DNA of 64,000 nt from a virus, in the IMG/VR virus record IMGVR_UViG_3300033153_006744, positions 1 through 64,000 of that record. One strand, written 5' to 3'. Below are positions 1 to 58,626 of the stretch, piece after piece (the first letter of the stretch is position 1; every line of letters begins with the position of its first letter). Under the pieces are notes generated by a model, which had not been told where the DNA came from, searched no databases, and worked only from the letters and a program-made list of their open reading frames with translations. Made by a program: the position numbers and the translations under genes.

Positions 1-240
1 TCTCTTAATGTTTTAGCTCTATCCTTTATGAATTTCTCTTTTTCTTCTTTTGTTAAACTATCATAATATTCAGTTAAACTGTGAGACTTAAAACTTAAAT
101 GCTTTAACGTTTTTTTCAAGTGTTTTCTTTTTATTGTTTTCACATCTCACCCCCACGGGCAACACATCAATTTTGCTCTAACCATATATTGTGTTATTTA
201 TAAAATTATAAAACGCCATCAACATGTTACCCTATATAGA

Positions 241-46978: not shown

Positions 46979-47269
46979 CTATTTGATTACTTTAAACTCA
47001 TTTTCTTTAAGTTTAATTTTTAATTTATCTAGAGATCCTATTAAAATTGTTGTCTTATTGTATTCTATCTTTAACATTTTAAAGGATTTATTTTTAAAGA
47101 ATCCTGTTGTAATATTATATTCCCATCCATCACCTTCAACTATTTTCATTTCACTTTTAGGTACATTCTTTTTTTCTCTTTCTTTCTTGTCTTTTTTTTC
47201 TTGTTTAGCAAGCTCTTCTTTTATTGTAATTTCCTTTTTCTTTTTTTTAGTCATCTTTTCTCTCCACAT
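46979..47269 (-). CDS. Small lysine-rich protein
   Basis: Packed ORF between tail terminator and sheath. Confidence 0.45.
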   Translation of the reverse strand: MWREKMTKKKKKEITIKEELAKQEKKDKKEREKKNVPKSEMKIVEGDGWEYNITTGFFKNKSFKMLKIEYNKTTILIGSLDKLKIKLKENEFKVIK

Positions 47270-48161
47270 TTAATGTTATATCTGTAATTTCATCATAAAC
47301 ATCTTTTATAACTTTATCGTAACTTGTAATAGGAATTCTATATATAATTATATCTAAAGAATCTGAAGGATAATTATCATTTCCAACTGTAAAGTTATTA
47401 TATTGCTCTATTTCCCATTCGTAATCAATGTCATCATGATTAAAAGAAGGCATCTTATTTCTTAAATCATATATTATCCTATTCTTTAACCTTAAAACTA
47501 TCTGTGGAGATTGAGACCAAAACATTATTCTTAATGTTATATCTTGTAGTCTTTCTCTAGCATTCTTATATAAGTCATTGACCCCCTGAACATCATCAGC
47601 TGGCAAAAACATCACATCGGCTGGAGTTACGCCAACCAAGCTAACCACAGAGCCAGTATCACTCATTTTGCTTAACTCTTGTCCAGATGTTTCACTCATA
47701 TAATCTTGGCTTCTATATAAAAAAGTTTCATGTAACCAAAATGTTTTTAGTTTCTTTATGAAAGTTTTTATTATATTTTCAACATCACACGCTTGTTCAT
47801 TTTCATCAGGCATTTCGTAAGTCCAAGAGTCTGTTTCTGTTACTGTTTCACCTGGTATAGGATCTAAATTGTCATCTAAGTTAGTAATGATTATATCTCC
47901 AAGCAAAGGAAACTTAGAAGGAGCACCTTTTTCATCTGTCCATGGGTCAGCATCATAAGCTGGCGTCCATATTCGCAACAAAGCACCATCTTCTAACACA
48001 TCAACTCTATCAGCAACAATGCCTTGAAACTTAACTTCAACAACATGTGGATTGCTGCCCACTGCAGCTATTCTGAAATTAGTGCCTATAATATAGACAA
48101 CATCTTTTCCAAATGTAAGTCCAGAAGGTTGTGAAATACTTGTAAAAGTTGGAACAGCCAT
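47247..48161 (-). CDS. Tail terminator-like protein with N-terminal IPT/TIG domain
   Basis: PTFTSISQPSGLTFGKDVVYIIGTNF is IPT/TIG-like; upstream of sheath. Confidence 0.6.
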   Translation of the reverse strand: MAVPTFTSISQPSGLTFGKDVVYIIGTNFRIAAVGSNPHVVEVKFQGIVADRVDVLEDGALLRIWTPAYDADPWTDEKGAPSKFPLLGDIIITNLDDNLDPIPGETVTETDSWTYEMPDENEQACDVENIIKTFIKKLKTFWLHETFLYRSQDYMSETSGQELSKMSDTGSVVSLVGVTPADVMFLPADDVQGVNDLYKNARERLQDITLRIMFWSQSPQIVLRLKNRIIYDLRNKMPSFNHDDIDYEWEIEQYNNFTVGNDNYPSDSLDIIIYRIPITSYDKVIKDVYDEITDITLNVERKDD

Positions 48162-48712
48162 TACCTTAAACCCTTAGCTTTTAAAGCTCTTAAAGCCTGC
48201 GTTGTAAACAAATGCTCTATATTACCTTTCATCTTTCGATAAATAGGGGCAATAAAAGGTCTAGCAGGGATATTTATTATTTTAAATCTGCCATCTTCGC
48301 CTTTTCTCATAATTGTTTTACCGTGTTCATGAACCCAGGCTATATTAACCATCTTACCTTTTTCGCCATCAGAGTCATATTCTTCATTTCTATGTATTCC
48401 AACAAAAAAAGAGCCTCTTCCTGTACTAGTTAGCCTAATGCTTCTAAGCAATTGCCCATATCTTATTAAAGCTTTGGTTCCCTTAAAGCCCTCTGCCCTT
48501 CTTCTTGCTATTGTTGCTTTAGCTAAGGGTTTAAATCTTTCATTATTGGGGGCTTGACTTCTTATTCCAAGTTTTATTTCTTTTACGGAAAACATTGCTA
48601 AACGTCTTAACACTAAATGCATAACTGGTTTAGCTTGTTTATATATTGTATTTAAAGCCGTTGACGCCTTATCCCAATCACCAAAAACATTTTTACCCAT
48701 ATTAACCCCCAC
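48161..48712 (-). CDS. Virion morphogenesis / tail completion protein (Mu gpG-like)
   Basis: FKPLAKATIARR, KALIRYGQLLRSI, IAWVHEHG, IPARPFI. Confidence 0.85.
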   Translation of the reverse strand: MGVNMGKNVFGDWDKASTALNTIYKQAKPVMHLVLRRLAMFSVKEIKLGIRSQAPNNERFKPLAKATIARRRAEGFKGTKALIRYGQLLRSIRLTSTGRGSFFVGIHRNEEYDSDGEKGKMVNIAWVHEHGKTIMRKGEDGRFKIINIPARPFIAPIYRKMKGNIEHLFTTQALRALKAKGLR

Positions 48713-48719
48713 TTTTTAC

Positions 48720-48748
48720 ATTATGCCAGTGAAATGCTAAAAAGTAAA
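48720..48748 (-). promoter_or_regulatory. Putative promoter restarting tail-gene transcription
   Basis: TTTACT, 17 bp, CATAAT; shares TGGCATAAT with 35921-35949. Confidence 0.45.
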
Positions 48749-48806
48749 GCAATAATTTAATTAAGTTGTTTTTTTTATTGAATTATATTTAGAAATTGTT
48801 GTGAGA

Positions 48807-49391
48807 TTATTCTTTTTTGAAAAGTCCAAGTATCTTGCCAGAGTTCTCGTGTAAATACATCGCAAAGCTAGAACTAAGGATTCCTTCCATGAGAGCAGGT
48901 AACACAGCCATACCATTACCAACGCTATATAATATTGTAGCAGTTATACCTAACACAGACACTACTAAAACTTTTATAACAGGTTTTTGTTTAGACCAAA
49001 ATCCGCCAAACGCCTTAAGTCTCAAAATAGATAGCAATAAAAATATTAAAGACCCAATACCTAATAAGTATTTTTTCTCTTTGAATAAATTGTATGTCTC
49101 CTTGCCATCATCAATAATTTCTTCTTTAGTTGTGTTTTTACTTAGGTCAACATCTTTTAGTTCAGAGCTAACTCCAGCAGCCTTTAATTCATCTGATTTT
49201 TCTTTGTTTTCTTTTTCAACTTCTTTAATATCTTTTGTGATATTAGCAGGAAGTTTCTTTTCAACCTTGGCTTCAATCTCAAGCTCTTTGTTTTCTAAGA
49301 TAGGCTTTGGTACACCCTGTGCAAAAACATCAAATGTAAATGCAACAAAAAATACAGTTACAAGTGTCATAAAATAAAAAGTTCTCTTCAT
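48807..49391 (-). CDS. Membrane protein (signal peptide plus about three TM segments), possibly holin-like
   Basis: N-terminal VFA-Q signal; hydrophobic C-terminal helices. Confidence 0.55.
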   Translation of the reverse strand: MKRTFYFMTLVTVFFVAFTFDVFAQGVPKPILENKELEIEAKVEKKLPANITKDIKEVEKENKEKSDELKAAGVSSELKDVDLSKNTTKEEIIDDGKETYNLFKEKKYLLGIGSLIFLLLSILRLKAFGGFWSKQKPVIKVLVVSVLGITATILYSVGNGMAVLPALMEGILSSSFAMYLHENSGKILGLFKKE

Positions 49392-49405
49392 TTTTTTCTC
49401 CTAAT

Positions 49406-49819
49406 TTAATTAAATAATTGTTTAACTTCGTCATTTTCTTTTTCGTCAAAGTTAAATATTAGTAAATAGTTATTGTTAATATATAATTCAAAGTTAAAAA
49501 TAACATTGTTACGCTTAACTTCTAAATTAAAGCCAAAAACATCAGCCTCGCTTTTGGTAAAGCCTAGTTCGCTTAAGTCTGCTTCTATATCTTGCAGCCT
49601 TAACAGCCTTTCTTTTTCTAGGTTATTAGATCTAGTTGCTTGATCATGTGACATATCTGTCATGCTTTCTGGTTTTGATAGAAAGCCTTTTATTATATCT
49701 TTGTTATAGCTATATATTAAAAGACATATATTGCCTATTAGTATGTAATTATCTTTTTCTTTAATGTATGCCTTCTTAAGCATGTGTTCTAAGTTATCAA
49801 CAGTTCTTTCTTTTGTCAT
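49406..49819 (-). CDS. Hypothetical protein
   Basis: Likely start MTKERT with GGAG RBS. Confidence 0.5.
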   Translation of the reverse strand: MTKERTVDNLEHMLKKAYIKEKDNYILIGNICLLIYSYNKDIIKGFLSKPESMTDMSHDQATRSNNLEKERLLRLQDIEADLSELGFTKSEADVFGFNLEVKRNNVIFNFELYINNNYLLIFNFDEKENDEVKQLFN

Positions 49820-49873
49820 AAAATCTCCGTAAATTAACATTGTATATATAGCATTTGTGCAATAAAAAAGCAA

Positions 49874-50536
49874 TTATTGTTTATCTTTGTGGTTGTTTAG
49901 CCTTATAAATGACAACACAACTAATAATTGCAACTCACTAAACTTAGAAAAAAACATCTTATTGTCATTGTATTTACTTAATCCGAACTTTCCGATAACA
50001 TTAAACTTTATACTTTTGCCACTTATTATTTCAGTTTTTGAGAACTTAAAGGCAATCATTTCCTTAGCTGTTTCATGAATTTCAAGCATATCATCAAGAT
50101 TTATTTTCACAAGCCCTTTGTCAGTGCCAATTGTTATTGAATCTTTATTATAATTAACCTTGCAAAAAAAGAAGAAATGTTTTTTATACGAGAAATTAAC
50201 ACCAACCATAAATGGGCTTTTCTCCTTTTTGATTAAATCAAAGAGAACACTCCTGTTTTTAGTTGTTATAAACTCCTTTTCTGTAGCAAAAAAGTTAACT
50301 TGCCTTAATGTTTGGTTTTCTTTTAAGTTTTTGGTTTTAAACAAAGAAGAGCAAGTTAAGCATAATGTTTTTGAGTTATTCTTAAAAATATAGAAGTCAT
50401 TAAAGTTAGCTGATACCGTATTCTTTATTAAGTATCCATTACTTACTTCGCAATTACACAATGCGCAGGTTCCTTTTTCTTTTCCATCTTCGTTTTTAAT
50501 TATATGTTTATCTAGTATGTTAACTATATCTTTCAT
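49874..50536 (-). CDS. csf1: Type IV Csf1 (Cas8-like large subunit)
   Basis: Zn-finger CALC...SANFNDF...LCLTC and PFMVGVNFSYKKHFF; adjacent to csf3. Confidence 0.75.
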   Translation of the reverse strand: MKDIVNILDKHIIKNEDGKEKGTCALCNCEVSNGYLIKNTVSANFNDFYIFKNNSKTLCLTCSSLFKTKNLKENQTLRQVNFFATEKEFITTKNRSVLFDLIKKEKSPFMVGVNFSYKKHFFFFCKVNYNKDSITIGTDKGLVKINLDDMLEIHETAKEMIAFKFSKTEIISGKSIKFNVIGKFGLSKYNDNKMFFSKFSELQLLVVLSFIRLNNHKDKQ

Positions 50537-51218
50537 TGTTCTCCTTTAGTTGTTTTGGGATTAATATATTTTCTTGATATTCACCTAGCCAATATGGCGC
50601 ACGATAAGACCCATAATCATTTACATAAGAGAAATCTCTATCTTTAAATATGTTATCAGCCATCACCTTAAGTGGCAGTGGTCTAAATAATAAATATTTT
50701 TGCTCTTCTTTTTCGGCAATCGTAATCTCAAAACTTGAAAACCAACCGAACCCAGCCTTAACTTTTTTCCCAATCCCAACAATATAATCTACTAGTTCTT
50801 TTATCTTGTTTTTATCTCCTATAAAATAAAAAACTATATTATCAACAGAATTTATAACAATAGGCATGTCATAGCTTTTATAATATCCACTACCTATATT
50901 TACCTTTCTTTTGGCTTTTCCAAAATAACTAAGAAAATCATGTCTTGAATTCCATCGTTTCCGCCACTTGTCAATTGATATTTCTTTTTTCTCTATTATT
51001 CCATAAGAACAAAGATAAAAACCTAATTTGTGTTTTTTTATGGGGATTAATTTTTCTATATTCTTATTTATTTCGGAACCATTCGAGGTTTTAATGTCGG
51101 TGTTTTTTCTAAAATATTTCTGATAAACTGCATAAGAAATAATGCTGTCAAAAATAGGTATATCTGTATAAGCAATTGGAGATGACATTTTAAATTTTAT
51201 TTTATAAGTTATATCCAT
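50520..51218 (-). CDS. csf3: Type IV Csf3 (Cas5-like RAMP)
   Basis: SSPIA...FDSIISYA, GSGYYKSYDMP, FIGD, G-rich loop GIGKKVKAGFG, RPLP, YRAPYW. Confidence 0.85.
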   Translation of the reverse strand: MDITYKIKFKMSSPIAYTDIPIFDSIISYAVYQKYFRKNTDIKTSNGSEINKNIEKLIPIKKHKLGFYLCSYGIIEKKEISIDKWRKRWNSRHDFLSYFGKAKRKVNIGSGYYKSYDMPIVINSVDNIVFYFIGDKNKIKELVDYIVGIGKKVKAGFGWFSSFEITIAEKEEQKYLLFRPLPLKVMADNIFKDRDFSYVNDYGSYRAPYWLGEYQENILIPKQLKENNERYS

Positions 51219-51832
51219 GATTTTGAGAACTCCTTATTTCTAAACAAGTTTCCGAGTCCAGTAAATTGCTTTAACCTTAAGACCTCGTCCTTATCCATCC
51301 CTAGTTGTTCACTTATCTTCTTGTCACTCCAGCCCATAAAATAAAGCTCTTCAACTATTTCACTCATAGATTGTATGCCATGCGTTCCTCTCGCCCTATT
51401 GTGTCTAATTGTACTAGCCATTCTTTCCTTTAAACTTTTTTCTATAACCACTAGTGGCAAATAGCCCTTGGTTCGTGTTTTTATGTCATCATATTCCTTT
51501 CCAATTCTATTCCTGTGAAATCCATCAACAACAACATACTTATCTTGCTCTTTATCATAAAAAGATACAATTGGTTGAGTATATCCATCTTCTTTTATTG
51601 ACCTATATAATAATTGCATTTCTGGAGGTGCAACCTTGTTTGGGTTGTAATTATTAGCCTTAACCCTATCTGCTTTTATCCACAAAACATTGCTGACTGG
51701 CTCTTCTTTAAGTGGGTTAATTTCGTTTAGTTTAGAATAAATGTCATTTAATAATTCTATCTTGTCATCTTGTTTTCTTATCTTCTTTATGTTGAAAATA
51801 AGTTCGTCAACCTTATCTAATAATTCTTTCAT
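51209..51832 (-). CDS. ibrB: IbrB/YbdM-like ParB/Srx-family protein
   Basis: ANNYNPNKVAPPEMQLL...DGYTQPIV...VVDGFHR...RMASTIRHNRARG...LGMDKDEVLRLKQ. Confidence 0.9.
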   Translation of the reverse strand: MKELLDKVDELIFNIKKIRKQDDKIELLNDIYSKLNEINPLKEEPVSNVLWIKADRVKANNYNPNKVAPPEMQLLYRSIKEDGYTQPIVSFYDKEQDKYVVVDGFHRNRIGKEYDDIKTRTKGYLPLVVIEKSLKERMASTIRHNRARGTHGIQSMSEIVEELYFMGWSDKKISEQLGMDKDEVLRLKQFTGLGNLFRNKEFSKSWI

Positions 51833-53046
51833 TCTCCTAGCTCCTCTTTCATTTTATAATATTTTTCGTATTGATTTTTAGTTTGACCAAACGACAAACT
51901 TTTACAGATTTTATCGTTCTTTAATATAACTTTAGCAAGCCTCCGCCATGATGGAGCCTTTTTAGAGCTTTCAAGTTTTTTGTCTGCTTCATCTGGAATT
52001 CCATCTGGATAACCATTTTTAGACCACCACCGAATAAATATCTTGAATTTTTGCCCATACCACTCTGCTTCAAATTTTGGAAGAGTTGCCATTAGAAAAT
52101 TAACATAACTTTCCCATGTGTGATTTTTTGGCAATATTACCTTGTTGTTTCCTAATAAAAAGCTTTTGCAATATATGTTGCCAAAATTAGCTCCAGACAC
52201 TCTATCAACAATTCTAGACCACGTTTCAGGTTCACACTGTCTAAATAAATTAAGACCTTTTCTTTGGTCATCTCCGTATGGCTGACATATTCTTGCTTCA
52301 TGTATTGATAACCCCTGCATGTACATGAAATCATAAATTTTATTGTATGTATAGCTCTCGTTTCCAACAGAAACCCATATATCTTTAGTCTTCCAGTCAT
52401 AAATAGGGTAAAAATTAAAAACATTCTCAACAATTTGAGTTGTCCACATTTTATCTTTATATATTTTTTTCTTCGTATTTTTAATGGTTCTATATCTATT
52501 TAAACTTTCATCTGATCTTATTCCAACTCCACAGGCAATTTTTTCTTTTCCAACTTTGAACCACTCTGCAAACCTAACAACTAATTCTTCAAACTCTATT
52601 CCTCTATGAAACCATTTCTCCCATTCTTTGGGCATGTTATTTTCGTTTATAACATATTTTGAATTAGGCATCGGCCTAACCCATTTATCTTCATTTTCTT
52701 TATCCCAACAAATCCATTGTGGCTGGTAAACACTTACTGCATTTCTTAAATTTAAAGGCAAGCATAGCCAATAACCATCAATATCTTTATTGTTGAAAAT
52801 TTCTTCAACATGCTTTATTGTAGACTTATACTGAGCCTCTAAGTCAATGAAAAGTATTTTTATTGGTATTTTGTTCTTTTTTTTCGCAATTTCAAGTGCT
52901 AGTTGAACCATTACACTAGAGTCTTTTCCGCCAGAAAAAGAAAAGCAAATCTCATCTTTGTCAAAGTTGTCAAAAATAAAATTAAGTCTTTCTATTGCCT
53001 TGTCCCAAACATTTACTTTTGAATATGTTTTTGATTCACTGTTCAT
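51829..53046 (-). CDS. ibrA: IbrA/YbdN-like protein (PAPS-reductase fold plus DUF3440)
   Basis: PP-loop SFSGGKDS, FIDLEAQY, GIRSDESLNRY, YPIYDW, RICQPYGDDQRKGL, APSWRR. Confidence 0.9.
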   Translation of the reverse strand: MNSESKTYSKVNVWDKAIERLNFIFDNFDKDEICFSFSGGKDSSVMVQLALEIAKKKNKIPIKILFIDLEAQYKSTIKHVEEIFNNKDIDGYWLCLPLNLRNAVSVYQPQWICWDKENEDKWVRPMPNSKYVINENNMPKEWEKWFHRGIEFEELVVRFAEWFKVGKEKIACGVGIRSDESLNRYRTIKNTKKKIYKDKMWTTQIVENVFNFYPIYDWKTKDIWVSVGNESYTYNKIYDFMYMQGLSIHEARICQPYGDDQRKGLNLFRQCEPETWSRIVDRVSGANFGNIYCKSFLLGNNKVILPKNHTWESYVNFLMATLPKFEAEWYGQKFKIFIRWWSKNGYPDGIPDEADKKLESSKKAPSWRRLAKVILKNDKICKSLSFGQTKNQYEKYYKMKEELGE

Positions 53047-53067
53047 TCTACCTCCTTAGTTACTTAC

Positions 53068-53096
53068 ACTGTAACACATTTTAAACTAAATGTCAA
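53068..53096 (-). promoter_or_regulatory. Internal sigma70-type promoter for ibrA-ibrB-csf3-csf1
   Basis: TTGACA (53091-53096), 17 bp, TACAGT, then AAGGAGG. Confidence 0.65.
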
Positions 53097-53870
53097 CTAT
53101 GTATATGCTTTTATTTCTGGATGAAAACTTAACATGAGATTGTATTGTTTTTTATAGTAATACTTTAACCATGAAAACTGACCTATTGTTGCAGCCGTTG
53201 GATCTACAAACCAAGATATTCTTATTTTAGCTGGATCATCTGTAAATCTTGTTTTATTATATGCCGGGTGTAGCAATTTATCTAATTTTCTACTGTAAAT
53301 ATATGCAAAAACATCATCCCCAGTTAAATCACAAATCGGATAAAACTGATATATCTTATTTTTCTTAGAATAAAATAATTTACCCATATGTTTTATTAAA
53401 TTTTCCCTTCTTTTGCTTTCTTCTTTTCTTATCCCAATCAAGGCAATTTTATAATCATTGTCCTGTTGGAAGTTTCTAATGGGCGTCATCATTGCCTTTT
53501 CAAACGCATAATTCTTGCACCCAGCATCATAAAAAGCCTTCTTTTTTGCATATTCATCTAGTATGTCAATTGGGGATTTTACTACATTTATTGTCTTATT
53601 GTGGTGTTTTTCCGCTAGTTTTATAATTCCGTAGCTCTCGGGTAGCTCATACCAAGAATCATGAAACATTATGTCTAAATTAGGGTTTGCCTCTAATGCA
53701 ATATCTAGCATTACTAAACTATCCTTGCCAGTGCTATATGAAATAGAACCCTTTGTATTTCTTGTTTCTTTTTCAATAGAGCTCTTAACCAGCTCTATTT
53801 TTCCCTTAAACTCGTCTAGCTCTGCATACAACAAATAATATTCTTTATTTTTCATTTTCTTTAACTCCAA
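53097..53870 (-). CDS. cysH: CysH-like (PAPS-reductase fold) type IV-B accessory protein
   Basis: SYSTGKDSLVM, IGIRKEESKRR, YPICDLTGDDVFAYI; lacks the C-terminal ECGLH; directly follows csf2. Confidence 0.85.
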   Translation of the reverse strand: MELKKMKNKEYYLLYAELDEFKGKIELVKSSIEKETRNTKGSISYSTGKDSLVMLDIALEANPNLDIMFHDSWYELPESYGIIKLAEKHHNKTINVVKSPIDILDEYAKKKAFYDAGCKNYAFEKAMMTPIRNFQQDNDYKIALIGIRKEESKRRENLIKHMGKLFYSKKNKIYQFYPICDLTGDDVFAYIYSRKLDKLLHPAYNKTRFTDDPAKIRISWFVDPTAATIGQFSWLKYYYKKQYNLMLSFHPEIKAYT

Positions 53871-55044
53871 TAAAAGCTAGGATATCTTTTTTGTTTTTCT
53901 CTATATGCCTTAAGTATAAATTATTTGCATTTTCAGGAATTGTCAACTCTGACAAATCTATTTCAGATGAACCAGTTGCAAACATTCCGCCAATAAACGG
54001 ATTTTCTTTAAAAAGAATTAATGCATGCCAGAAGGCCGAAACAGATAATTCATTAAAATCCATCATTCTAAAGCCATGATTGAACTGAGTTCCTTTTGCA
54101 AAAACTTCATATTCATACTTCATATGAGTTGGGTTTTCATCTTTTTTGTCTTTTATCGCCTTTATTGATATATTCTTTTCATCTTTAGAGCTATCTTTTC
54201 TGCTTTGAAAAATCATGTCCAAGTAAGACCAGAATGAGTTAATTCCTGTTTTCAACTCCACGCATTTAGGATATGCAAAACCAACAGATAATTGACCTTC
54301 TATTGTCATGTTGCCTATTGCACTGCCAAAAACACCAAGCATTGGAATGCTATCTATTAGCTTTTCTCTTTTTTCTAAGTCCTCATATAGGGTAGACTCG
54401 GTCAAGGCTCCGCCAGTAAACAAAATATGATATAATTGTTTATCTATTTTTTTACATCCAACTCTTTTTAAGAAATCATACATCGCTAATCTTCTTAAGA
54501 CGCCCCTAATGCTATTTCCAGATATACAAGGAATCAGCTCAAATGTTTTATTGTATGTTTTAAGTTTCTCTTTTTTTACATCTAATTTATGGTCTTTATC
54601 CTTGCTCTTCATTCTTAATAAAACAGTTATAGTGTGAGCCTCATCTCTAACTTTTGACAAAAACTCAACATCTGTTATTTGTTGTAGATAATTGAATGTT
54701 TTATCTTTTAAATCAGGCATTCTAACACCACATAAATCTGCAAATACTTCAAAAAATTGGAATCTATTTGAAGATGTTGCAGACCTTTTAATTTTTGAAT
54801 ATAGCTCATCCCATATTCCCATTAATCTCTTTCCTTTTATTTTGCTAAAGTCTATCTTAGAGTATATACTATAACAAACATCAACAATGATATTTCTAAC
54901 ATCATCATCTGAAAACGAGGTTAAAAAGTTCTCGTTTTTAACCATTATTTTCTGTCTCCTAAGCAGCTTTGTTGTTCCGTCTGTCTTATCGGAACCCGTG
55001 TGAAGGAATGTTGTTCCAGTGAAATTGTAGTCAACTTTAATCAT
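53845..55044 (-). CDS. csf2: Type IV Csf2 (Cas7) with an inserted helical Cas11-like domain
   Basis: TTFLHTG, IPCISGNSIRGVLRR, LFTGGAL, PMLGVFGSA...IEGQLSVG, MKYEYEVFAKGT, IGGMFATGSSEI. Confidence 0.85.
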   Translation of the reverse strand: MIKVDYNFTGTTFLHTGSDKTDGTTKLLRRQKIMVKNENFLTSFSDDDVRNIIVDVCYSIYSKIDFSKIKGKRLMGIWDELYSKIKRSATSSNRFQFFEVFADLCGVRMPDLKDKTFNYLQQITDVEFLSKVRDEAHTITVLLRMKSKDKDHKLDVKKEKLKTYNKTFELIPCISGNSIRGVLRRLAMYDFLKRVGCKKIDKQLYHILFTGGALTESTLYEDLEKREKLIDSIPMLGVFGSAIGNMTIEGQLSVGFAYPKCVELKTGINSFWSYLDMIFQSRKDSSKDEKNISIKAIKDKKDENPTHMKYEYEVFAKGTQFNHGFRMMDFNELSVSAFWHALILFKENPFIGGMFATGSSEIDLSELTIPENANNLYLRHIEKNKKDILAFIGVKENEK

Positions 55045-55099
55045 GTTTACTCCTTATTTAAGTTTAAGCATTGGGCTAATGCCTTTTGATTTTCCTATA

Positions 55100-55528
55100 C
55101 TATTCTTTTAAAAAGTTTAAATGTGCATTCATTGCAAATCTTGAGCTAAAAGAAGTTTTATCTTTATTTATTTTGCCTAATTCGTTTACCCTTGCAACAG
55201 TAAGAATAAAATTAGAGTTAGATTTTCTAAATTTATTAAAATAAAAAACCTCTTCGGTTTCGTCATTTTTGAACATATGGAATTCTTCCTGTAATCTTTC
55301 TAGCTCAGTTTTTTTAGACAATATTTTTAACAAGAAAATTCCGTCCTCTTTTAAAACAAGTTCAACGTTAAATTTGTCTTCTAGTTCTTCTTTCTCTACT
55401 CTAGTACATTCAGCTGCAATGCACTCAAATTTTTTAGCATTATTACTTAGAACAACTAAATCTTTGTTAGCTTTAAATATAGTTAAGTTTTTAAAGTTTT
55501 TTCTAATTTCATTATATAATTTTTTCAT
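55100..55528 (-). CDS. Hypothetical protein, first gene of the Cas cassette transcript
   Basis: Follows the promoter at 55550-55613; AAGGAG RBS. Confidence 0.6.
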   Translation of the reverse strand: MKKLYNEIRKNFKNLTIFKANKDLVVLSNNAKKFECIAAECTRVEKEELEDKFNVELVLKEDGIFLLKILSKKTELERLQEEFHMFKNDETEEVFYFNKFRKSNSNFILTVARVNELGKINKDKTSFSSRFAMNAHLNFLKE

Positions 55529-55549
55529 CTTAATCTCCTTTATTAATTT

Positions 55550-55613
55550 CTTTAGTTAAGACCCTTTCTTAACTCTATACATACATTATAATGCATTTAA
55601 GAATAAATGTCAA
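55550..55613 (-). promoter_or_regulatory. Sigma70-type promoter with leader hairpin (copy 6), upstream of the Cas cassette
   Basis: Perfect TTGACA (55608-55613), 17 bp, TATAAT (55585-55590); hairpin AGTTAAGA-AAGGG-TCTTAACT. Confidence 0.85.
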
Positions 55614-55691
55614 GCGAAAAGTAAATATAATTTAAGATAAAACAAAATCATGCGTAAGCTATTGTTATGATGCATTAAATGAAGTGATTTT

Positions 55692-56171
55692 TTACGCTAT
55701 GTCTTTTTTATTGAAAGATATTTCGACTAAGTTTCGTGTTGGATTAACAATGTCTATGCCAAAACCTGCATCAGATATATGCATTACAAATAATTCAATT
55801 GTGCCAAAAGTTTTAACTGTTCTGCCAAACTTATCCTCTATTCTAACAAGCCTATCACCTATTCTTAAATCTATATTGTTGTCTGAATTAAGCAACCCAG
55901 CCATTTCTATATCTCTATAGTGATGCAACAACATTAACATAGGCTTTATTTCTTGCCCTTTGTCCGTTATGATTGTTTTTTTAGGATTTTCATAAATCTG
56001 GCATCGCATCTTTATTTCTTCAGCTTCTTCAATTGTTTTAAATTTGGCAAGCCTACCGTCGTCAACCAATACAGGAGTTCCAAGCATAGGGTCAACATTA
56101 GCAGTGTCATATTCAGTTTCATCTACTCTTTTATAAACAGCTTTGAATTGAAATATTAAGTCACCACGCAT
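55692..56171 (-). CDS. Putative head closure protein
   Basis: Position after the adaptor; LRIGDRLVRI. Confidence 0.55.
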   Translation of the reverse strand: MRGDLIFQFKAVYKRVDETEYDTANVDPMLGTPVLVDDGRLAKFKTIEEAEEIKMRCQIYENPKKTIITDKGQEIKPMLMLLHHYRDIEMAGLLNSDNNIDLRIGDRLVRIEDKFGRTVKTFGTIELFVMHISDAGFGIDIVNPTRNLVEISFNKKDIA

Positions 56172-56172
56172 G

Positions 56173-57135
56173 TCAACACACCCTTGGAGGAGTCATATAT
56201 TTACCTAAGATAGCGTCAATAACCAGGTCTCCAGTGAAAACAGAAACATCTTCAGTATTATATTCAACTTCTTGGTCTTTAGTTTTCATTCTTTTCACAT
56301 AACCAGTAACAATCTCATCATCTAAAACAGAAAATAGTTTACTCATTAATGTTAACCTGAGACAAGCTCTTTTAATCTGAGAAGGAATTAAACCCCAGGG
56401 AGCGCTACCCTCTTGAACTACCCCAAAAATTCCCTCAATAGATATTCGCTTGTAATTTTCTAGGTCAACATTATAGATTTCTATTTCTAATATTCTTCTA
56501 GCATCAGTTAGTCCAATTAGATTTAAATTATGAACTATTGCATCTTCATCATCAAAGAGAGCCTTAGAGTTGTCGTCATCCCAGAACTGACTAATAAAAA
56601 TACATGGATAATTTAAAAATAAAGTATTATAATCGCTTTCTATGTTGTCATAGATTAAATGTCTAGCTCCAAAAAACCAGCCTGTAATCTGCTCTATTTC
56701 TTGCATAGAAGCCTTAATTCCATCTAATATCTGTTGATTAGTTAAAGTTGTTGTTGGTATCTCAGCTTTTATATCCAAAACACCGCAATAAGCATTTTCA
56801 ACATTTTCATCTATGTCATCTAAAACTTCAAAGTATTCAAATTTTGTTCTAATATTATCAGGCCTATACTTATCTCCAACGCTATCAAGAAATTTATATG
56901 TATATATTATTTTGTATTTTCCTTCAGTAGCTGGAGCAGTAAAAGGTATCTGATATATATAGTCAGCTATTTCAGAACTTGTTAAAATAACTGGTGTCTC
57001 AGCAATAACTTCTGTTCCTGCTGAATCTTCTACCTTAAAGCTTAAATAATCAAGCTCTGGTCTTGTCCCTCCAGAAAGGACAGGACAAAACCAAAACATA
57101 TCTGTTGTAGCTGTATCAGATTTAATAATTCTCAT
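56173..57135 (-). CDS. Head-tail adaptor with N-terminal Ig-like domain
   Basis: AYCGVLDIK...IEQITGWFF...IPSQIKRACLRL...DAILGKY. Confidence 0.7.
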   Translation of the reverse strand: MRIIKSDTATTDMFWFCPVLSGGTRPELDYLSFKVEDSAGTEVIAETPVILTSSEIADYIYQIPFTAPATEGKYKIIYTYKFLDSVGDKYRPDNIRTKFEYFEVLDDIDENVENAYCGVLDIKAEIPTTTLTNQQILDGIKASMQEIEQITGWFFGARHLIYDNIESDYNTLFLNYPCIFISQFWDDDNSKALFDDEDAIVHNLNLIGLTDARRILEIEIYNVDLENYKRISIEGIFGVVQEGSAPWGLIPSQIKRACLRLTLMSKLFSVLDDEIVTGYVKRMKTKDQEVEYNTEDVSVFTGDLVIDAILGKYMTPPRVC

Positions 57136-57138
57136 TTT

Positions 57139-57642
57139 TTATTCCATTAAGTCAGCTAAGAATTTAGAACCTTCAATGCTATCACCCATTTTTCTTTGTC
57201 TTTTCATTCTTGTTTGGTCAAAGAACCCAACATCTAAGCTATTAACATCAACAGGATCTTTATCCCTAAGCTCTAAGCTTTGATTTTGTTTCCTAAGAAC
57301 TTCTTCAACTGTAAATGCAAAGTCAAAGAATTGATCTACATATGCTCCTGTGCCTATTTTCTTGTTCTTAAGCTCTTCTTCATAGAACCACTTAGGAATC
57401 TTATACCATTTAGGCAAAGCACCAGTAAGCAAGTCAGAACCCCTAAAAATAACAGCTCCAGATCTCATCCACCTTTGGAAAGGATAACGAATCGGATCAT
57501 AAACTTTCATTCTACAGAAATACACTTCTTTTTTAGGAAGCTTCTTTTCTTCTGCTTTTGTAACTTTCATTTCTCTTTTTACTTTTACTTCAGCAACAGC
57601 TTTTTTAACTTCTTTCACTGTTTTTTTTCTAGCTCTAGCCAT
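57139..57642 (-). CDS. Hypothetical basic protein after the capsid gene
   Basis: K-rich N-terminus; AGGAG RBS. Confidence 0.55.
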   Translation of the reverse strand: MARARKKTVKEVKKAVAEVKVKREMKVTKAEEKKLPKKEVYFCRMKVYDPIRYPFQRWMRSGAVIFRGSDLLTGALPKWYKIPKWFYEEELKNKKIGTGAYVDQFFDFAFTVEEVLRKQNQSLELRDKDPVDVNSLDVGFFDQTRMKRQRKMGDSIEGSKFLADLME

Positions 57643-57654
57643 GTTAACTCCTAT

Positions 57655-58626
57655 TTATATTGTAACTCCATCAATTAAAACATTAGCTGGTTCTTCATTT
57701 AATTGCAAGTCTAATTTATATCTAGCAACAATTTTAAATGTTCCAGTATCAATGTCTTTGTCTGTTTCAACTGTAATGTTTTTCAAAATACCCAAGAAAC
57801 AATTCATTTTATTTAATAAAACAACATCTGTTTCTGTTCCACCACCAAGCGTAATAGGCATATAATCAGATTGAATAACAGGAATACCATTGATAATCAT
57901 GCCATCAACACCTTTTAACAATGTAGCGTCGCCAAGTTGTGTTTCTCTTCCTTGCATTTCAGTCATATTTGTTAATTTAGTTCTTGCAGACTGGATATAA
58001 AGTAAGTCTTGAGGTTTTAGATATTTTGGATCTAACAACTTTAAGATATTAGCATGTTCTTCTAAATCGAAATCAGCTATTGTTCCAGTGTTTGTTGTTA
58101 TGATTTTCCTTAAACCATCCATAGTTTTTAACAATAGATAATCTGGATGCCCAGGATCTGTTGCAGTGTCACCATTAAGAATTAAATTATCAATATCTCT
58201 AGCAATGGCTTCAATAAGTTGATTTGTAACTGTTGTAATAAATCCATCTTTTTCAATGTTTTCTTCTATGTCTTCATAAGATAGAAATGTTGTTGCTCTT
58301 AATCTTTTTACATTAAATGTAACCTTTGATAAAGATGGTGATCTTCTGTTAGAAGACGTTGACCCTGTATATTCCTCATCTTCAACTGACACTGAACCAG
58401 TAAAACCCATTACAGGTATAGATTGTGTAATTGCCTTTAACGGAATAGTTCTAATCATTTTAGCTAAAACTGTTTTCTCAACTATTTTAGCCATAAATTT
58501 TTGTAAATTATCTTGTTTAATTTCTCCACCAGCTGTTTCAATGTCACCAATTGACAAGTCAGCTTTCGTAACGAAATGTCCATTAATTAACTCATTTGCT
58601 TTTGCTATCAAAACTTCTCTATTCAT
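57655..58626 (-). CDS. Major capsid protein (HK97 fold)
   Basis: LSYEDIEEN, AIARDIDNLILNGD, DGLRK, INGIPVI, ITVETDKD. Confidence 0.92.
   Translation of the reverse strand: MNREVLIAKANELINGHFVTKADLSIGDIETAGGEIKQDNLQKFMAKIVEKTVLAKMIRTIPLKAITQSIPVMGFTGSVSVEDEEYTGSTSSNRRSPSLSKVTFNVKRLRATTFLSYEDIEENIEKDGFITTVTNQLIEAIARDIDNLILNGDTATDPGHPDYLLLKTMDGLRKIITTNTGTIADFDLEEHANILKLLDPKYLKPQDLLYIQSARTKLTNMTEMQGRETQLGDATLLKGVDGMIINGIPVIQSDYMPITLGGGTETDVVLLNKMNCFLGILKNITVETDKDIDTGTFKIVARYKLDLQLNEEPANVLIDGVTI

What the first reader, a model, noticed from the sequence alone, without database searches (positions are those of the whole stretch)
49874..55613. Phage-encoded, array-less type IV-B-like Cas effector with an IbrA/IbrB module built into the operon
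Seen: gene order is promoter, ORF, csf2 (cas7), cysH-like, ibrA, ibrB, csf3 (cas5), csf1 (cas8-like), inserted between head-closure and tail-completion genes. ibrA/ibrB, ibrB/csf3 and csf3/csf1 all overlap (51829-51832, 51209-51218, 50520-50536), implying translational coupling. There is no cas1, cas2, cas6, dinG or array in the window. Established: type IV-B loci sit on mobile elements, usually lack arrays, carry a CysH-like gene and have unresolved function. PAPS-reductase-fold plus ParB-like pairs also occur in DNA-modification systems (DndC/SspD with DndB-like proteins). Inference: two PP-loop enzymes and a ParB/Srx protein co-expressed with a Cascade-like scaffold could form a scaffold- or RNA-directed nucleic-acid modification machine, or an anti-defence complex that sequesters host crRNAs. 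This is the best candidate for an undescribed system here.
Basis: partly seen in the sequence, partly recalled or inferred. Interest (0 to 1): 0.92.

Follow-up and report, generated by a model that had tools for sequence, protein, structure and literature searches.

The report
Phage type IV-B Cas with IbrAB cassette
A 90-kb tailed phage carries a guide-less type IV-B CRISPR protein complex with an extra IbrA/IbrB enzyme pair built into the same operon, and the same pairing recurs in unrelated viruses, which gives a concrete lead to what these unexplained CRISPR systems do.

Summary
Window 49874-55613 (- strand) encodes, behind a perfect sigma-70-like promoter, ORF142, Csf2 (Cas7 with a Cas11-like domain inserted), a CysH-like PP-loop protein, IbrA (PAPS_reduct+DUF3440), IbrB (ParB-like), Csf3 and Csf1. 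The last four junctions overlap or abut. The whole 90,494-nt virus record has no CRISPR-like array and no Cas1, Cas2, Cas6 or DinG match.

The ibrAB insertion is not a one-off.
- It lies inside 7 of 49 informative Csf2-ascertained type IV-B locus clusters, nearly always between csf3 and cysH.
- The linkage needs at least 4 changes on the IbrA tree and 6 on the Csf2 tree.
- One pair of about 95%-identical loci differs only by a swap of cysH for cysH'-ibrB-ibrA.
- Against a strict dependence: 78 of the 80 closest viral ibrAB loci lack csf genes, and 42 of 49 IV-B clusters lack ibrAB.

I read it as a type IV-B effector with an exchangeable enzyme cartridge. The chemistry (PP-loop-driven nucleic-acid modification) is inferred, not shown. 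None of my six relevant paper searches found the link in print. This scan has noted the same pairing before on other DNA (26 notes, at least 18 genomes).

The parts
55585..55613 (-). sigma-70-like promoter, TTGACA-17-TATAAT, 12 of 12 matches, upstream of ORF142
   Evidence: It is a consensus match only; the region's total count of such sites is not above shuffles.
55100..55528 (-). ORF142, first gene behind the promoter; function unknown; probably not part of the Cas/IbrAB set
   Evidence: No Pfam, PHROG, NCBIfam or PADLOC family at the thresholds used. No homologue in the 106 csf loci. The Atlas gives only a weak methyltransferase-like lead, score 0.88.
53845..55044 (-). Csf2 (type IV Cas7) with a Cas11-like helical domain (about residues 46-148) inserted after the N-terminal hairpin
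   Evidence: PADLOC typeIV_Cas7 E 1.3e-49 (residues 157-392) and typeIV_Cas11 E 9.6e-8 (residues 55-164). AF2 model pLDDT 84, pTM 0.79. PDB profile hits: Cas7c 11fs_C E 1.6e-15 and Csf2 7jhy_e E 3e-11. VIA-align: 8s36_E Z 18.6 (rmsd 3.2, 208 aligned) and 7jhy_a Z 16.5 (rmsd 3.6, 217 aligned), both spanning model residues 1-392.
53097..53870 (-). CysH-like (CasCysH-type) PP-loop protein; the ATG at 53855 is the likelier start
   Evidence: PAPS_reduct E 2.4e-18. Invariant S-x-G-K-D-S and G-x-R-x-x-E motifs and no invariant cysteine in 12 sequences. PDB profile hits to CysD and PAPS reductases. Junction sequence.
53068..53096 (-). Second promoter-like site (TTGACA-17-TACAGT, TG-extended, 10 of 12) in the 50-nt gap before ibrA, followed by AAGGAGG
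   Evidence: Consensus match only.
51829..53046 (-). IbrA: PP-loop ATP-pyrophosphatase fold (SFSGGKDS) plus DUF3440, with conserved cysteines
   Evidence: DUF3440 E 1.1e-37 and PAPS_reduct E 1.6e-13. phrog_2302 E 8.3e-92. C113 and C254 invariant, C95, C172 and C381 nearly invariant in 25 sequences. AF2 pLDDT 78.6. Foldseek best matches are PAPS/APS reductases, the FAD synthase PAPS domain, TtuA and NcsA.
51209..51832 (-). IbrB: ParB/Srx-like N-terminal domain (DGFHR motif) with a weak C-terminal HTH-like match
   Evidence: phrog_2159 E 1e-73. ParB_N E 4.8e-5, 23.8 bits, under Pfam's 26.3 cut-off, and Terminase_5 HTH E 0.0013. Sequence. Lies next to IbrA in 80 of 80 viral loci.
50520..51218 (-). 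Csf3 (type IV Cas5)
   Evidence: PADLOC typeIV_Cas5 E 9.2e-38. TIGR03116 E 3.6e-22, 79 bits, under the 140-bit cut-off.
49874..50536 (-). Csf1 (type IV Cas8-like large subunit)
   Evidence: PADLOC typeIV_Cas8 E 8.9e-27. TIGR03114 E 8.3e-12, 45 bits, under the 140-bit cut-off.

Best explanation
This is a divergent but genuine subtype IV-B CRISPR-Cas effector operon: Csf1, Csf3, Csf2 with a built-in Cas11 domain, and a CysH-like PP-loop protein. It is carried by a tailed phage without any array, Cas6 or adaptation genes. It has taken in the two-gene phage module ibrA-ibrB at the csf3|cysH junction, which is the slot where this module recurs in other IV-B loci.

Shown:
- the identity of every gene;
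- the operon layout;
- the recurrence of ibrAB inside IV-B loci, its independent origins, and its cassette-like exchange.

Inferred:
- The Csf ribonucleoprotein is a nucleic-acid-binding platform with no nuclease of its own.
- The cysH/ibrAB block is its exchangeable enzymatic output.
- CysH-like and IbrA use ATP at their PP-loops to adenylate a position on a bound nucleic acid. IbrA, which unlike CysH keeps conserved cysteines, completes a substitution, possibly a sulfur transfer as in TtuA, NcsA or DndC.
- IbrB is the ParB-like, nucleotide-dependent DNA-binding partner, as DndB and DpdB are in their systems.
- The phage would use this in conflict with host defences or with rival mobile elements.

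My odds: gene identities 0.95; ibrAB functionally coupled to the IV-B genes 0.75; covalent nucleic-acid modification as the output 0.3.
For: Gene identities.

One transcription unit with overlapping or abutting genes and strong ribosome sites.

No array, Cas1, Cas2, Cas6 or DinG in the whole record.

Recurrence:
- Among loci found with Csf2 alone, ibrA+ibrB lie inside the csf/cysH block in 7 of 49 informative 90%-identity clusters (the window and the IbrA-ascertained L108 are left out).
- For comparison, 132 of 50,697 isolate-phage records hold an IbrA relative at all.
- At least seven gene orders occur, and in all but L108 the cassette sits between csf3 and cysH, whichever of the two comes first.
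- Where ibrAB is absent, csf3 and cysH abut or overlap in 26 of 37 clusters.

Independent origins:
- The csf-linked label needs at least 4 changes on a 90-row IbrA tree, all four forced by starred branches, and 0 of 500 shuffles were as low.
- It needs at least 6 changes on the Csf2 tree and at least 5 on the CysH tree.

Cassette exchange: L107 and L083 share 95% (csf2 3' end) and 94% (csf3 5' end) nucleotide identity. Between those ends they carry either cysH alone or a 35%-identical cysH plus ibrB-ibrA.

Chemistry:
- PP-loop motifs are invariant in both enzymes.
- CysH-like has no invariant cysteine. IbrA has two invariant and three nearly invariant ones.
- The IbrA fold matches PAPS reductases and the [4Fe-4S] tRNA thiolases TtuA and NcsA.

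Literature: reviews propose that CasCysH modifies a nucleic acid bound by the Csf complex (passages of PMC8175902).
Against: - ibrAB does not need csf genes: 78 of the 80 viral loci closest to the window's IbrA have IbrB next door but no Csf2 or Csf3.
- IV-B does not need ibrAB: 42 of 49 clusters lack it, including all 5 other members of the window's own Csf2 clade.
- ibrA has its own promoter-like site and is separated from cysH by 50 nt, so it could be expressed on its own.
- The enrichment compares metagenomic loci with an isolate-phage database, which are different populations.
- The trees are quick searches with SH-aLRT support only. They carry long-branch warnings for L107 and L108 and a 'long branches meet' warning at the join of the L009-L015-L018 rows with the remaining rows, the window among them.
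- No substrate, modification, bound RNA or protein contact has been shown by anything here.
- Csf1, Csf2 and Csf3 all score under NCBIfam's equivalog cut-offs, so the complex may behave unlike the studied one.
Confidence: 0.5

Rival explanations
1. Independent cargo in a permissive slot. ibrAB is a self-sufficient phage module that lands repeatedly at the csf3|cysH junction because that junction tolerates insertions. It works on its own, with no functional tie to the Csf complex.
For: - 78 of 80 close ibrAB loci lack csf genes.
- The junction also holds other inserts or gaps: 11 of 37 clusters without ibrAB have 220-715 bp there, and orf216-like genes occur in L042 and L039.
- ibrA has its own promoter-like site.
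- The GNAT and orf194 genes that travel with ibrAB into csf loci also accompany it elsewhere (5 and 4 of 80 loci).
Against: - The same rare module (132 of 50,697 isolate-phage records) entered the same operon at least 4 times by the IbrA tree.
- It is embedded between Cas genes rather than beside them.
- Its stop codon overlaps the csf3 start in the window, and the ibrB and csf3 ORF calls overlap in L108.
- In one clade cysH and ibrAB move together between different Csf2 backbones.
Confidence: 0.2
2. Gene regulation. The Csf complex binds DNA or RNA without cutting, as type IV-A complexes do. [quoted passage not shown]
For: - Type IV-A acts by CRISPRi-like repression (introduction of PMC13676074).
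- Database names for IbrA/IbrB are 'co-activator of prophage gene expression' (annotations; passage of PMC8813620).
- IbrB has a ParB-like domain and a weak HTH match.
- The operon sits among late structural genes.
Against: - No guide source is present.
- A regulator does not obviously need two conserved ATP-pyrophosphatase active sites.
- The co-activator role rests on names only. My searches found no paper on its mechanism.
Confidence: 0.15
3. Anti-defence sponge. The array-less Csf complex soaks up host crRNAs or other small RNAs, and the enzymes inactivate the captured RNA or are bystanders.
For: - A type IV-B complex assembled on heterogeneous non-CRISPR RNA of uniform length (passages of PMC7937560).
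- The sponge idea and the negative correlation of IV-B with other CRISPR types are discussed in 10.1101/780106 (passages).
- The element is a phage with no array of its own.
Against: - The authors of 10.1101/780106 themselves call so complex an anti-CRISPR unlikely.
- Some relatives keep cas6 (L002, L020, L057), which fits their own RNA processing.
- The idea does not explain why ParB-like IbrB and DNA-linked neighbours travel with the module: an SNF2 helicase in L110 and L111, PD-(D/E)XK-type matches in L113 and L127.
Confidence: 0.1

Closest known systems
Subtype IV-B CRISPR-Cas (csf1-cas11-csf2-csf3 plus cysH-like), reference complex Mycobacterium sp. JS623, PDB 7JHY
   Same: Csf1, Csf2, Csf3, Cas11 and CysH-like components. 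No array, Cas6, helicase or nuclease. Borne on a mobile element. The Csf2 model aligns to 7jhy_a at Z 16.5, rmsd 3.6, 217 residues, and the profile hits 7jhy_e at E 3e-11.
   Different: - Cas11 is a domain inside Csf2, not a separate gene.
- csf1 is last rather than first.
- ibrA-ibrB is inserted between cysH and csf3.
- The host element is a roughly 90-kb tailed phage, not a plasmid.
- Scores are under NCBIfam's equivalog cut-offs.
Type IV-B loci of viruses, such as the 'Fuxiviridae' of Bathyarchaeia (10.1101/2023.08.24.554615; passages read), and Skermania phage SPI1 Orf40-43
   Same: Virus-borne IV-B effector genes with a CysH-like neighbour (Fuxivirus). An isolated phage carries csf1-cas11-csf2-csf3 (SPI1).
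   Different: Fuxivirus has a mini-array and a Cas4, and no ibrAB is mentioned in the passages I read. I saw no ibrAB in the 12.9 kb of SPI1 that I fetched (annotation; seven ORFs scanned). The SPI1 genes are annotated only as hypothetical.
Free-standing phage ibrA-ibrB modules (PHROG 2302 plus 2159; named after E. coli IbrA/IbrB)
   Same: Same two families, adjacent in 80 of 80 loci. The window's IbrA is 43-54% identical to them.
   Different: Elsewhere the pair sits among replication- and recombination-type genes: an SNF2 helicase in L110 and L111, PD-(D/E)XK-type matches in L113 and L127, a GNAT in L108. SNF2-like ORFs occur in 12 of 80 loci and GNAT-like ORFs in 5 of 80. Here it sits inside a Cas operon in the virion-gene region, and SNF2 and GNAT are missing from the whole record.
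DNA-modification systems that pair a PAPS-reductase-fold or base-exchange enzyme with a ParB-like protein: Dnd (DndC with DndB), Ssp (SspD), BREX type 4 (BrxP), Dpd (DpdA with DpdB)
   Same: A PP-loop, PAPS-reductase-fold enzyme together with a ParB/Srx-family partner. There are weak partial matches to DndC, SspD and BrxP profiles. DpdB is described as a ParB-like ATPase that drives base insertion, and DndB as a ParB-family regulator (passages of PMC12839542).
   Different: The matches cover only part of the profiles and lie far below family cut-offs: DndC 30 bits against 290. I did not look for DndA/D/E, SspA-C or PglZ partners. No restriction component is evident.

Membership tests
Subtype IV-B CRISPR-Cas | Csf2 (type IV Cas7) backbone subunit | tested here: met
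   PADLOC typeIV_Cas7 E 1.3e-49. PDB profile hits to Cas7c and Csf2. VIA-align Z 16.5-18.6 to type IV Cas7 chains. TIGR03115 reaches only 37 bits against a 130-bit cut-off, so the protein is divergent.
Subtype IV-B CRISPR-Cas | Csf1 (small Cas8-like) and Csf3 (Cas5) | tested here: met
   PADLOC typeIV_Cas8 E 8.9e-27 and typeIV_Cas5 E 9.2e-38. The NCBIfam equivalogs match, but under their cut-offs.
Subtype IV-B CRISPR-Cas | Cas11 small subunit | tested here: met
   Present as a domain of Csf2. PADLOC typeIV_Cas11 E 9.6e-8 on residues 55-164, and E 5.6e-11 in the L002 homologue. The AF2 model has a helical block at 46-148, flanked by strands that align to Cas7 chains from residue 1. I did not fold this domain alone.
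Subtype IV-B CRISPR-Cas | Adjacent cysH-like gene of the Cas-associated kind (PP-loop kept, catalytic cysteine lost) | tested here: met
   PAPS_reduct E 2.4e-18. Invariant SxGKDS motif and no invariant Cys in 12 sequences. The loss of the catalytic Cys in CasCysH is described in PMC8175902 (passages). I did not place the protein in the published CasCysH clade.
Subtype IV-B CRISPR-Cas | No DinG or RecD helicase, no Cas10-like HD subunit, no Cas6, no array, no adaptation genes | tested here: met
   Whole 90,494-nt record: no arrays; no Cas6, Cas1 (106), Cas2 (107), DEAD_2 (108) or SNF2 (77). RecD and Cas10-HD were not searched by name, but none of the seven operon proteins matched such profiles in PADLOC.
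Subtype IV-B CRISPR-Cas | Forms a Csf2/Cas11 filament on RNA | not testable with these tools
   Needs expression and purification.
IbrA/IbrB module | IbrA: PAPS_reduct domain followed by DUF3440 | tested here: met
   129.9 and 51.5 bits, both over Pfam's cut-offs. phrog_2302 E 8.3e-92 over the full length.
IbrA/IbrB module | IbrB: ParB/Srx-like protein encoded next to IbrA | tested here: met
   phrog_2159 E 1e-73. ParB_N gives 23.8 bits, just under the 26.3 cut-off. DGFHR motif. 4-nt overlap with ibrA. Adjacent in 80 of 80 loci.
IbrA/IbrB module | Activates prophage gene expression (the basis of the name) | not testable with these tools
   Known to me only from database names and recall. One search found no paper on the mechanism.
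Assimilatory PAPS/APS reductase (CysH proper) | C-terminal catalytic cysteine and an equivalog-level score | tested here: not met
   No invariant Cys. NF002537 52.7 bits against a 154 cut-off, and TIGR00434 42.9 against 165.
Dnd/Ssp DNA phosphorothioation | DndC or SspD equivalog | tested here: not met
   IbrA against DndC (TIGR03183): 30.4 bits against a 290 cut-off, partial. CysH-like against SspD: E 2.2e-5, partial.
Dnd/Ssp DNA phosphorothioation | Partner genes (DndA, DndD, DndE or SspA-C) | not tested
   I ran no search for them.

The most novel reading that the evidence does not exclude
The cysH/ibrAB block is the interchangeable 'effector cartridge' of type IV-B systems. The nuclease-less Csf ribonucleoprotein delivers PP-loop enzymes, with IbrB as their ParB-like DNA clamp, to a chosen nucleic acid. 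The enzymes write a covalent mark on it, for example a thio- or other substitution made through an adenylated intermediate. That would make IV-B an RNA-scaffolded or RNA-guided nucleic-acid modification system, used by phages and plasmids in their conflicts. No CRISPR type is known to have such an output.
Probability: 0.2. Interest if true: 0.9.

Novelty: new variant of a known kind. Interest (0 to 1): 0.62.

Why it matters
Type IV-B is the one widespread CRISPR-Cas subtype whose function is still called unclear in 2026 (introduction of PMC13676074). The field's only handle so far has been the CysH-like gene. IbrAB is itself a very large, uncharacterised phage and prophage family: 7,999 of the 8,000 candidates scored were relatives.

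A recurrent, independently arising, cassette-like union of the two narrows the hypotheses for both, towards ATP-dependent chemistry on a nucleic acid. It also supplies natural matched constructs:
- the L083/L107 swap pair;
- this minimal window version, which has only ibrA and ibrB and no GNAT, methylase or SNF2.

These make the question testable by ordinary expression, pull-down and mass-spectrometry experiments. The Cas11-inside-Cas7 architecture is of separate structural interest, because it fixes the two subunits at one copy each.

Tried and rejected
- Complex prediction: Csf3 + CysH-like + IbrA, with IbrA as partner and my own alignments, gave 'no answer'. It is evidence neither way. IbrB, Csf1 and Csf2 were not in the job.
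- Sequencing runs for 49800-55700: none was listed, and no RNA holder was listed. So read laying was not used, and nothing can be said about expression.
- Rfam on 47000-58000 at E up to 1: only two sub-threshold chance-like rows (mir-965 and sR4). I found no candidate guide RNA.
- Close relatives of the phage, to define the insertion borders: the 320-aa neighbour protein found no viral relative. The capsid protein found only relatives of 31% identity or less among the 15 isolate-phage rows listed. The borders of the insertion are therefore undefined.
- Nucleotide search of 49000-56500 against isolate phages: only short ibrA/ibrB stretches matched.
- ORF142: no family in four libraries. The Atlas lead to small methyltransferases scored 0.88, under the level the tool calls more than a lead. 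I left it unassigned.
- The earlier-scan lead that Csf genes and an SNF2 helicase replace each other beside ibrAB: SNF2-like ORFs were in 12 of 80 IbrA-ascertained loci and in none of the 11 distinct csf-linked ibrAB loci. By my own arithmetic 0 of 11 against 12 of 78 has a chance of about 0.18. The profile was built from two helicases only. Not established here.
- The idea that cysH variants track ibrAB: true only for one clade (L057, L018, L015, L107). The window's CysH pairs with L068, which has no ibrAB.
- DUF3440: Foldseek matches of the IbrA model aligned only 228-413 columns at query-normalised TM-scores of 0.35 or less, all to PP-loop-family chains. I did not fold DUF3440 alone, so I make no claim about its fold.
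- Paper searches for the link found none. Supplementary locus tables of 10.1101/780106, 10.1101/270033 and PMC8175902 may list such neighbours. Moya-Beltran et al. 2021 (PMC8658065) is not held. Faure et al. 2019 and Makarova et al. 2020 were not read.

Full report
WHAT IS THERE. The window is part of a single 90,494-nt virus record, which IMG/VR labels as having direct terminal repeats. G+C is about 31% and every long ORF is on the - strand. Portal, head-morphogenesis, major-capsid, tail-completion and tail-sheath families flank the region, so it is a tailed, sheath-bearing phage.

Between the capsid-side genes and the neck/tail genes lies a run of seven ORFs:
- ORF142, 55100-55528
- a 399-aa protein, 53845-55044
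- a 257-aa protein, 53097-53870
- a 405-aa protein, 51829-53046
- a 207-aa protein, 51209-51832
- a 232-aa protein, 50520-51218
- a 220-aa protein, 49874-50536

GENE IDENTITIES.
- The 399-aa protein is Csf2. PADLOC gives typeIV_Cas7 at E 1.3e-49.
- The 232-aa protein is Csf3 (typeIV_Cas5, E 9.2e-38), and the 220-aa protein is Csf1 (typeIV_Cas8, E 8.9e-27). NCBIfam's Csf1, Csf2 and Csf3 equivalogs also match, but far below their curated cut-offs. The proteins are therefore divergent members.
- The 257-aa protein is a PAPS_reduct protein (E 2.4e-18). It has an invariant SxGKDS PP-loop and no invariant cysteine across 12 homologues. That is the pattern described for the Cas-associated CysH (passages of PMC8175902).
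- The 405-aa protein is IbrA: PAPS_reduct plus DUF3440, both over Pfam's cut-offs, and phrog_2302 over its full length.
- The 207-aa protein is IbrB (phrog_2159, E 1e-73). It has a DGFHR ParB/Srx-type motif.
- ORF142 has no family and no homologue in any related locus.

STRUCTURE OF CSF2. An AlphaFold2 model built on 29 homologues has pLDDT 84 and pTM 0.79.
- Its best structural matches are type IV Cas7 chains: 8s36_E at Z 18.6, rmsd 3.2, 208 residues; 7jhy_a (type IV-B) at Z 16.5, rmsd 3.6, 217 residues (Foldseek).
- These alignments run from model residue 1 or 2 to about 392 but cover only 205-239 residues. The part left out corresponds to a helical block at about 46-148.
- That block matches type IV Cas11 profiles: E 9.6e-8 here and 5.6e-11 in the L002 homologue.
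- So the Cas11 small subunit is inserted into Cas7, after the N-terminal hairpin.
- That hairpin carries an invariant Asp (D19). By position it may correspond to the conserved 'catalytic-loop' Asp42 discussed for Csf2 in PMC7937560 (passages). This is my inference only.
- About 200 proteins of about 400 aa share the architecture. In L019, L020 and L027 the two parts are separate ORFs.

OPERON FEATURES.
- A 12-of-12 sigma-70 consensus lies at 55613-55585. No terminator-like site on the - strand lies between it and the end of csf1.
- The junctions are: csf2/cysH overlap; a 50-nt gap before ibrA that holds a second promoter-like site and AAGGAGG; ibrA/ibrB ATGA overlap; ibrB/csf3 10-nt overlap; csf3/csf1 17-nt overlap.
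- The count of promoter-like sites in the region is not above shuffles, so only the perfect match is notable.

WHAT IS ABSENT.
- No CRISPR-like repeats in the window or in the whole record.
- No Cas6, Cas1 (106), Cas2 (107), DinG-type DEAD_2 (108), SNF2 (77, 80) or GNAT (110). The control genomes rang for each family.
- The record may be incomplete: CheckV estimates 74%.

IS THE ibrAB INSERTION MORE THAN CHANCE? I collected loci with the Csf2 protein or its alignment alone: 27 viral, 12 genome and 67 metagenome loci. I then searched their ORFs with the window's seven proteins.
- Clustering Csf2 at 90% identity, with the window, L108 and L162 added, gave 66 clusters. Of these, 51 were informative, meaning that csf3 and cysH were both found or that there was enough flank.
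- Leaving out the window and L108 (which was found through IbrA), 7 of 49 informative clusters carry ibrA and ibrB inside the csf/cysH block, and 42 do not.
- For scale, an IbrA relative occurs in 132 of 50,697 isolate-phage records, 90 of them Flavobacterium phages. That is a different population, so the roughly 50-fold contrast is only indicative.

Gene orders seen:
- window: csf2-cysH-[ibrA-ibrB]-csf3-csf1
- L021, L023, L040, L089: csf1-cas11-csf2-csf3-[ibrA-GNAT-ibrB]-cysH. This set includes a Methanobrevibacter assembly.
- L162: csf3-[ibrA-ibrB]-cysH
- L009: csf3-[orf323-ibrA-ibrB-orf216]-cysH
- L015, L018: cysH-[orf~300-ibrA-ibrB-GNAT-orf216-orf175]-csf3
- L057: cysH-[ibrB-orf120-orf270-ibrA]-csf3-cas6
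- L107: cysH-[ibrB-ibrA]-csf3
- L108: csf2-[ibrA-GNAT-ibrB]-csf3-cysH

In every case but L108 the block sits between csf3 and cysH, whichever comes first. Where there is no ibrAB, these two genes abut or overlap in 26 of 37 clusters.

INDEPENDENT ORIGINS. I scanned viral contigs with an IbrA alignment and kept the 80 best of 295 relatives. IbrB is adjacent in 80 of 80, and Csf2 and Csf3 are present in 2 of 80 (L108, L162).
- On a 90-row IbrA tree (quick search, LG+G4, SH-aLRT) the csf-linked rows fall in four separate places, which starred branches keep apart: the window with L108; the L021 group nested among free-standing ibrA genes; L162; and a distant clade of L009, L015, L018, L057 and L107. 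No shuffle of 500 was as clustered.
- On the Csf2 tree the ibrAB label needs at least 6 changes. The window's own 99%-supported clade has five other members, none with ibrAB.
- On the CysH tree it needs at least 5 changes. There L057, L018, L015 and L107 group together although their Csf2 proteins do not.
- The window is thus a mosaic: its Csf2 is nearest L041, L002 and L003; its CysH is nearest L068; its IbrA is nearest L108.
- The clearest single case is L107 against L083, from one metagenome. The 3' end of csf2 is 95% identical and the 5' end of csf3 is 94% identical in nucleotides. Between them L083 has cysH alone (0.95 kb), while L107 has a 35%-identical cysH followed by ibrB and ibrA (2.5 kb). 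This is a cassette exchange inside the operon.
- Caveats: the trees are quick trees. L107 and L108 are long branches, and the tool also warned that long branches meet where the L009-L015-L018 rows join the remaining rows, the window among them. The locus scans use peptide patterns and are not exhaustive.

WHAT SPEAKS AGAINST A TIGHT DEPENDENCE.
- ibrAB is mostly free-standing (78 of 80 loci). Its sampled neighbours there are an SNF2 helicase (L110, L111), PD-(D/E)XK-type matches (L113, L127) and weak DUF6291 and replisome-organiser matches. SNF2-like ORFs lie in 12 of 80 loci, GNAT-like ORFs in 5 of 80 and an orf194 family in 4 of 80.
- Most IV-B loci lack ibrAB.
- ibrA may have its own promoter.

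HOW IT MOST LIKELY WORKS. The gene identities, the layout and the recurrence are shown. The rest is inference from established family knowledge.
- Type IV complexes bind nucleic acid and have no nuclease.
- PP-loop enzymes adenylate a substrate oxygen so that a nucleophile can replace it. Examples are TilS, TtuA, NcsA, QueC and DndC. This is my recall of the family chemistry; TtuA, NcsA and TilS appear among the fold matches.
- CasCysH keeps the PP-loop but has no cysteine. IbrA has two invariant and three nearly invariant cysteines.
- ParB-family partners serve base- or backbone-modifying enzymes in the Dpd and Dnd systems (passages of PMC12839542).
- I therefore propose that cysH plus ibrAB is an exchangeable enzymatic output of the Csf platform, and that it chemically marks a bound nucleic acid.
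- My odds are 0.3 for that chemistry and 0.75 for functional coupling of some kind. The rivals are independent cargo in a permissive slot (0.2), gene regulation (0.15) and an RNA sponge (0.1).

COMPARISON WITH WHAT IS KNOWN. The Cas part passes each testable defining feature of subtype IV-B (see Membership tests).
- IV-B on plasmids, prophages, some lytic phages and archaeal viruses is in print (passages).
- Its function is still called unclear in September 2026.
- My searches for 'type IV-B'+CysH+ParB (0 papers), IbrA+IbrB+CRISPR (9 papers, none relevant; two read in passages), 'type IV-B'+CysH, DUF3440, CasCysH and PAPS reductase+ParB+phage+'DNA modification' found no description of the link.
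- ParB is not mentioned in 10.1101/270033, 10.1101/780106, 10.1101/2023.08.24.554615 or PMC10910872.
- Supplementary tables, which I did not request because the task said they were closed, and papers that are not held could still contain it.

EARLIER NOTES OF THIS SCAN. After my own survey I looked them up. There are 26 notes in at least 18 other genomes that describe type IV-B genes with IbrAB cassettes.
- They agree with the recurrence and with the placement between cysH and csf3.
- They add variants in which CysH is lost, and an SNF2-or-Csf exclusivity idea. I could test the latter only weakly: 0 of 11 against 12 of 78.
- They are not independent evidence.
- This window adds the minimal form (ibrA and ibrB only), the Cas11-in-Cas7 architecture, the tree-based count of origins and the L083/L107 swap.

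VERDICT. It is a new variant of a known kind, and a useful lead on an open question, with the mechanism unproven.

Noticed in passing
window 53845-55044 (-); homologues P0002-P0120: Csf2 carries the Cas11 small subunit as an inserted domain (about residues 46-148), which fixes Cas7 and Cas11 at one copy each. About 200 proteins of about 400 aa share this form. In L019, L020 and L027 the two parts are separate ORFs. I found no mention of such a fusion in the passages I read.
   Followed up: partly
L001 4759-7691 (Skermania phage SPI1, KR011061.1, Orf40-43): An isolated, cultured phage carries csf1-cas11-csf2-csf3 by PADLOC (E 1.9e-28, 5.9e-15, 1.2e-66 and 2.1e-36). All four are annotated as hypothetical proteins. 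It is the only one of 50,697 phage records hit by the window's Csf2. It is a possible experimental handle on phage type IV-B.
   Followed up: partly
L107 1-2952 against L083 8992-10373: Two loci from one metagenome are 94-95% identical in their csf2 and csf3 ends. Between those ends one has cysH alone and the other has a different cysH plus ibrB-ibrA.
   Followed up: yes
L010 9299-9958 and relatives (L105, L063, L078, L082, L077, L102, L027, L103): A family of about 219 aa sits between csf2 and csf3 in IV-B loci that gave no CysH hit. Possibly it is another accessory gene in the same slot. I did not scan it against any family library.
   Followed up: no
L009 12385-13035, L015 13291-13941, L018 12905-13552; weak matches in L042 and L039: An orf216 family travels with ibrAB in three loci and also occurs, weakly matched, at the csf3|cysH junction of loci without ibrAB. 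It has one weak N6_N4_Mtase match, E 0.0055.
   Followed up: partly
L003 11330-13018; L006 2060-4327: SNF2-like helicase ORFs lie near type IV-B genes that have no ibrAB. In L003 the ORF begins about 0.7 kb after csf3.
   Followed up: no
L002 6683-7375; L020 8056-8754; L057 13426-14199: cas6-like genes lie directly beside IV-B effector genes (Cas6b profile E 2.6e-33 in L002). No array-like repeats were found in the 17 kb of L002.
   Followed up: partly
window 1-100 and record position 87829: The first 100 nt of the record recur at 87,829, about 2.7 kb before the record's end rather than at the end. The first 200 nt do not recur. IMG/VR nevertheless labels the record as having direct terminal repeats. 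Unexplained.
   Followed up: no
window 59424-61400 (-): A 658-aa protein whose C-terminal third matches head-maturation-protease PHROGs and one PHROG labelled DNA methyltransferase. The N-terminal 430 residues are unassigned.
   Followed up: no
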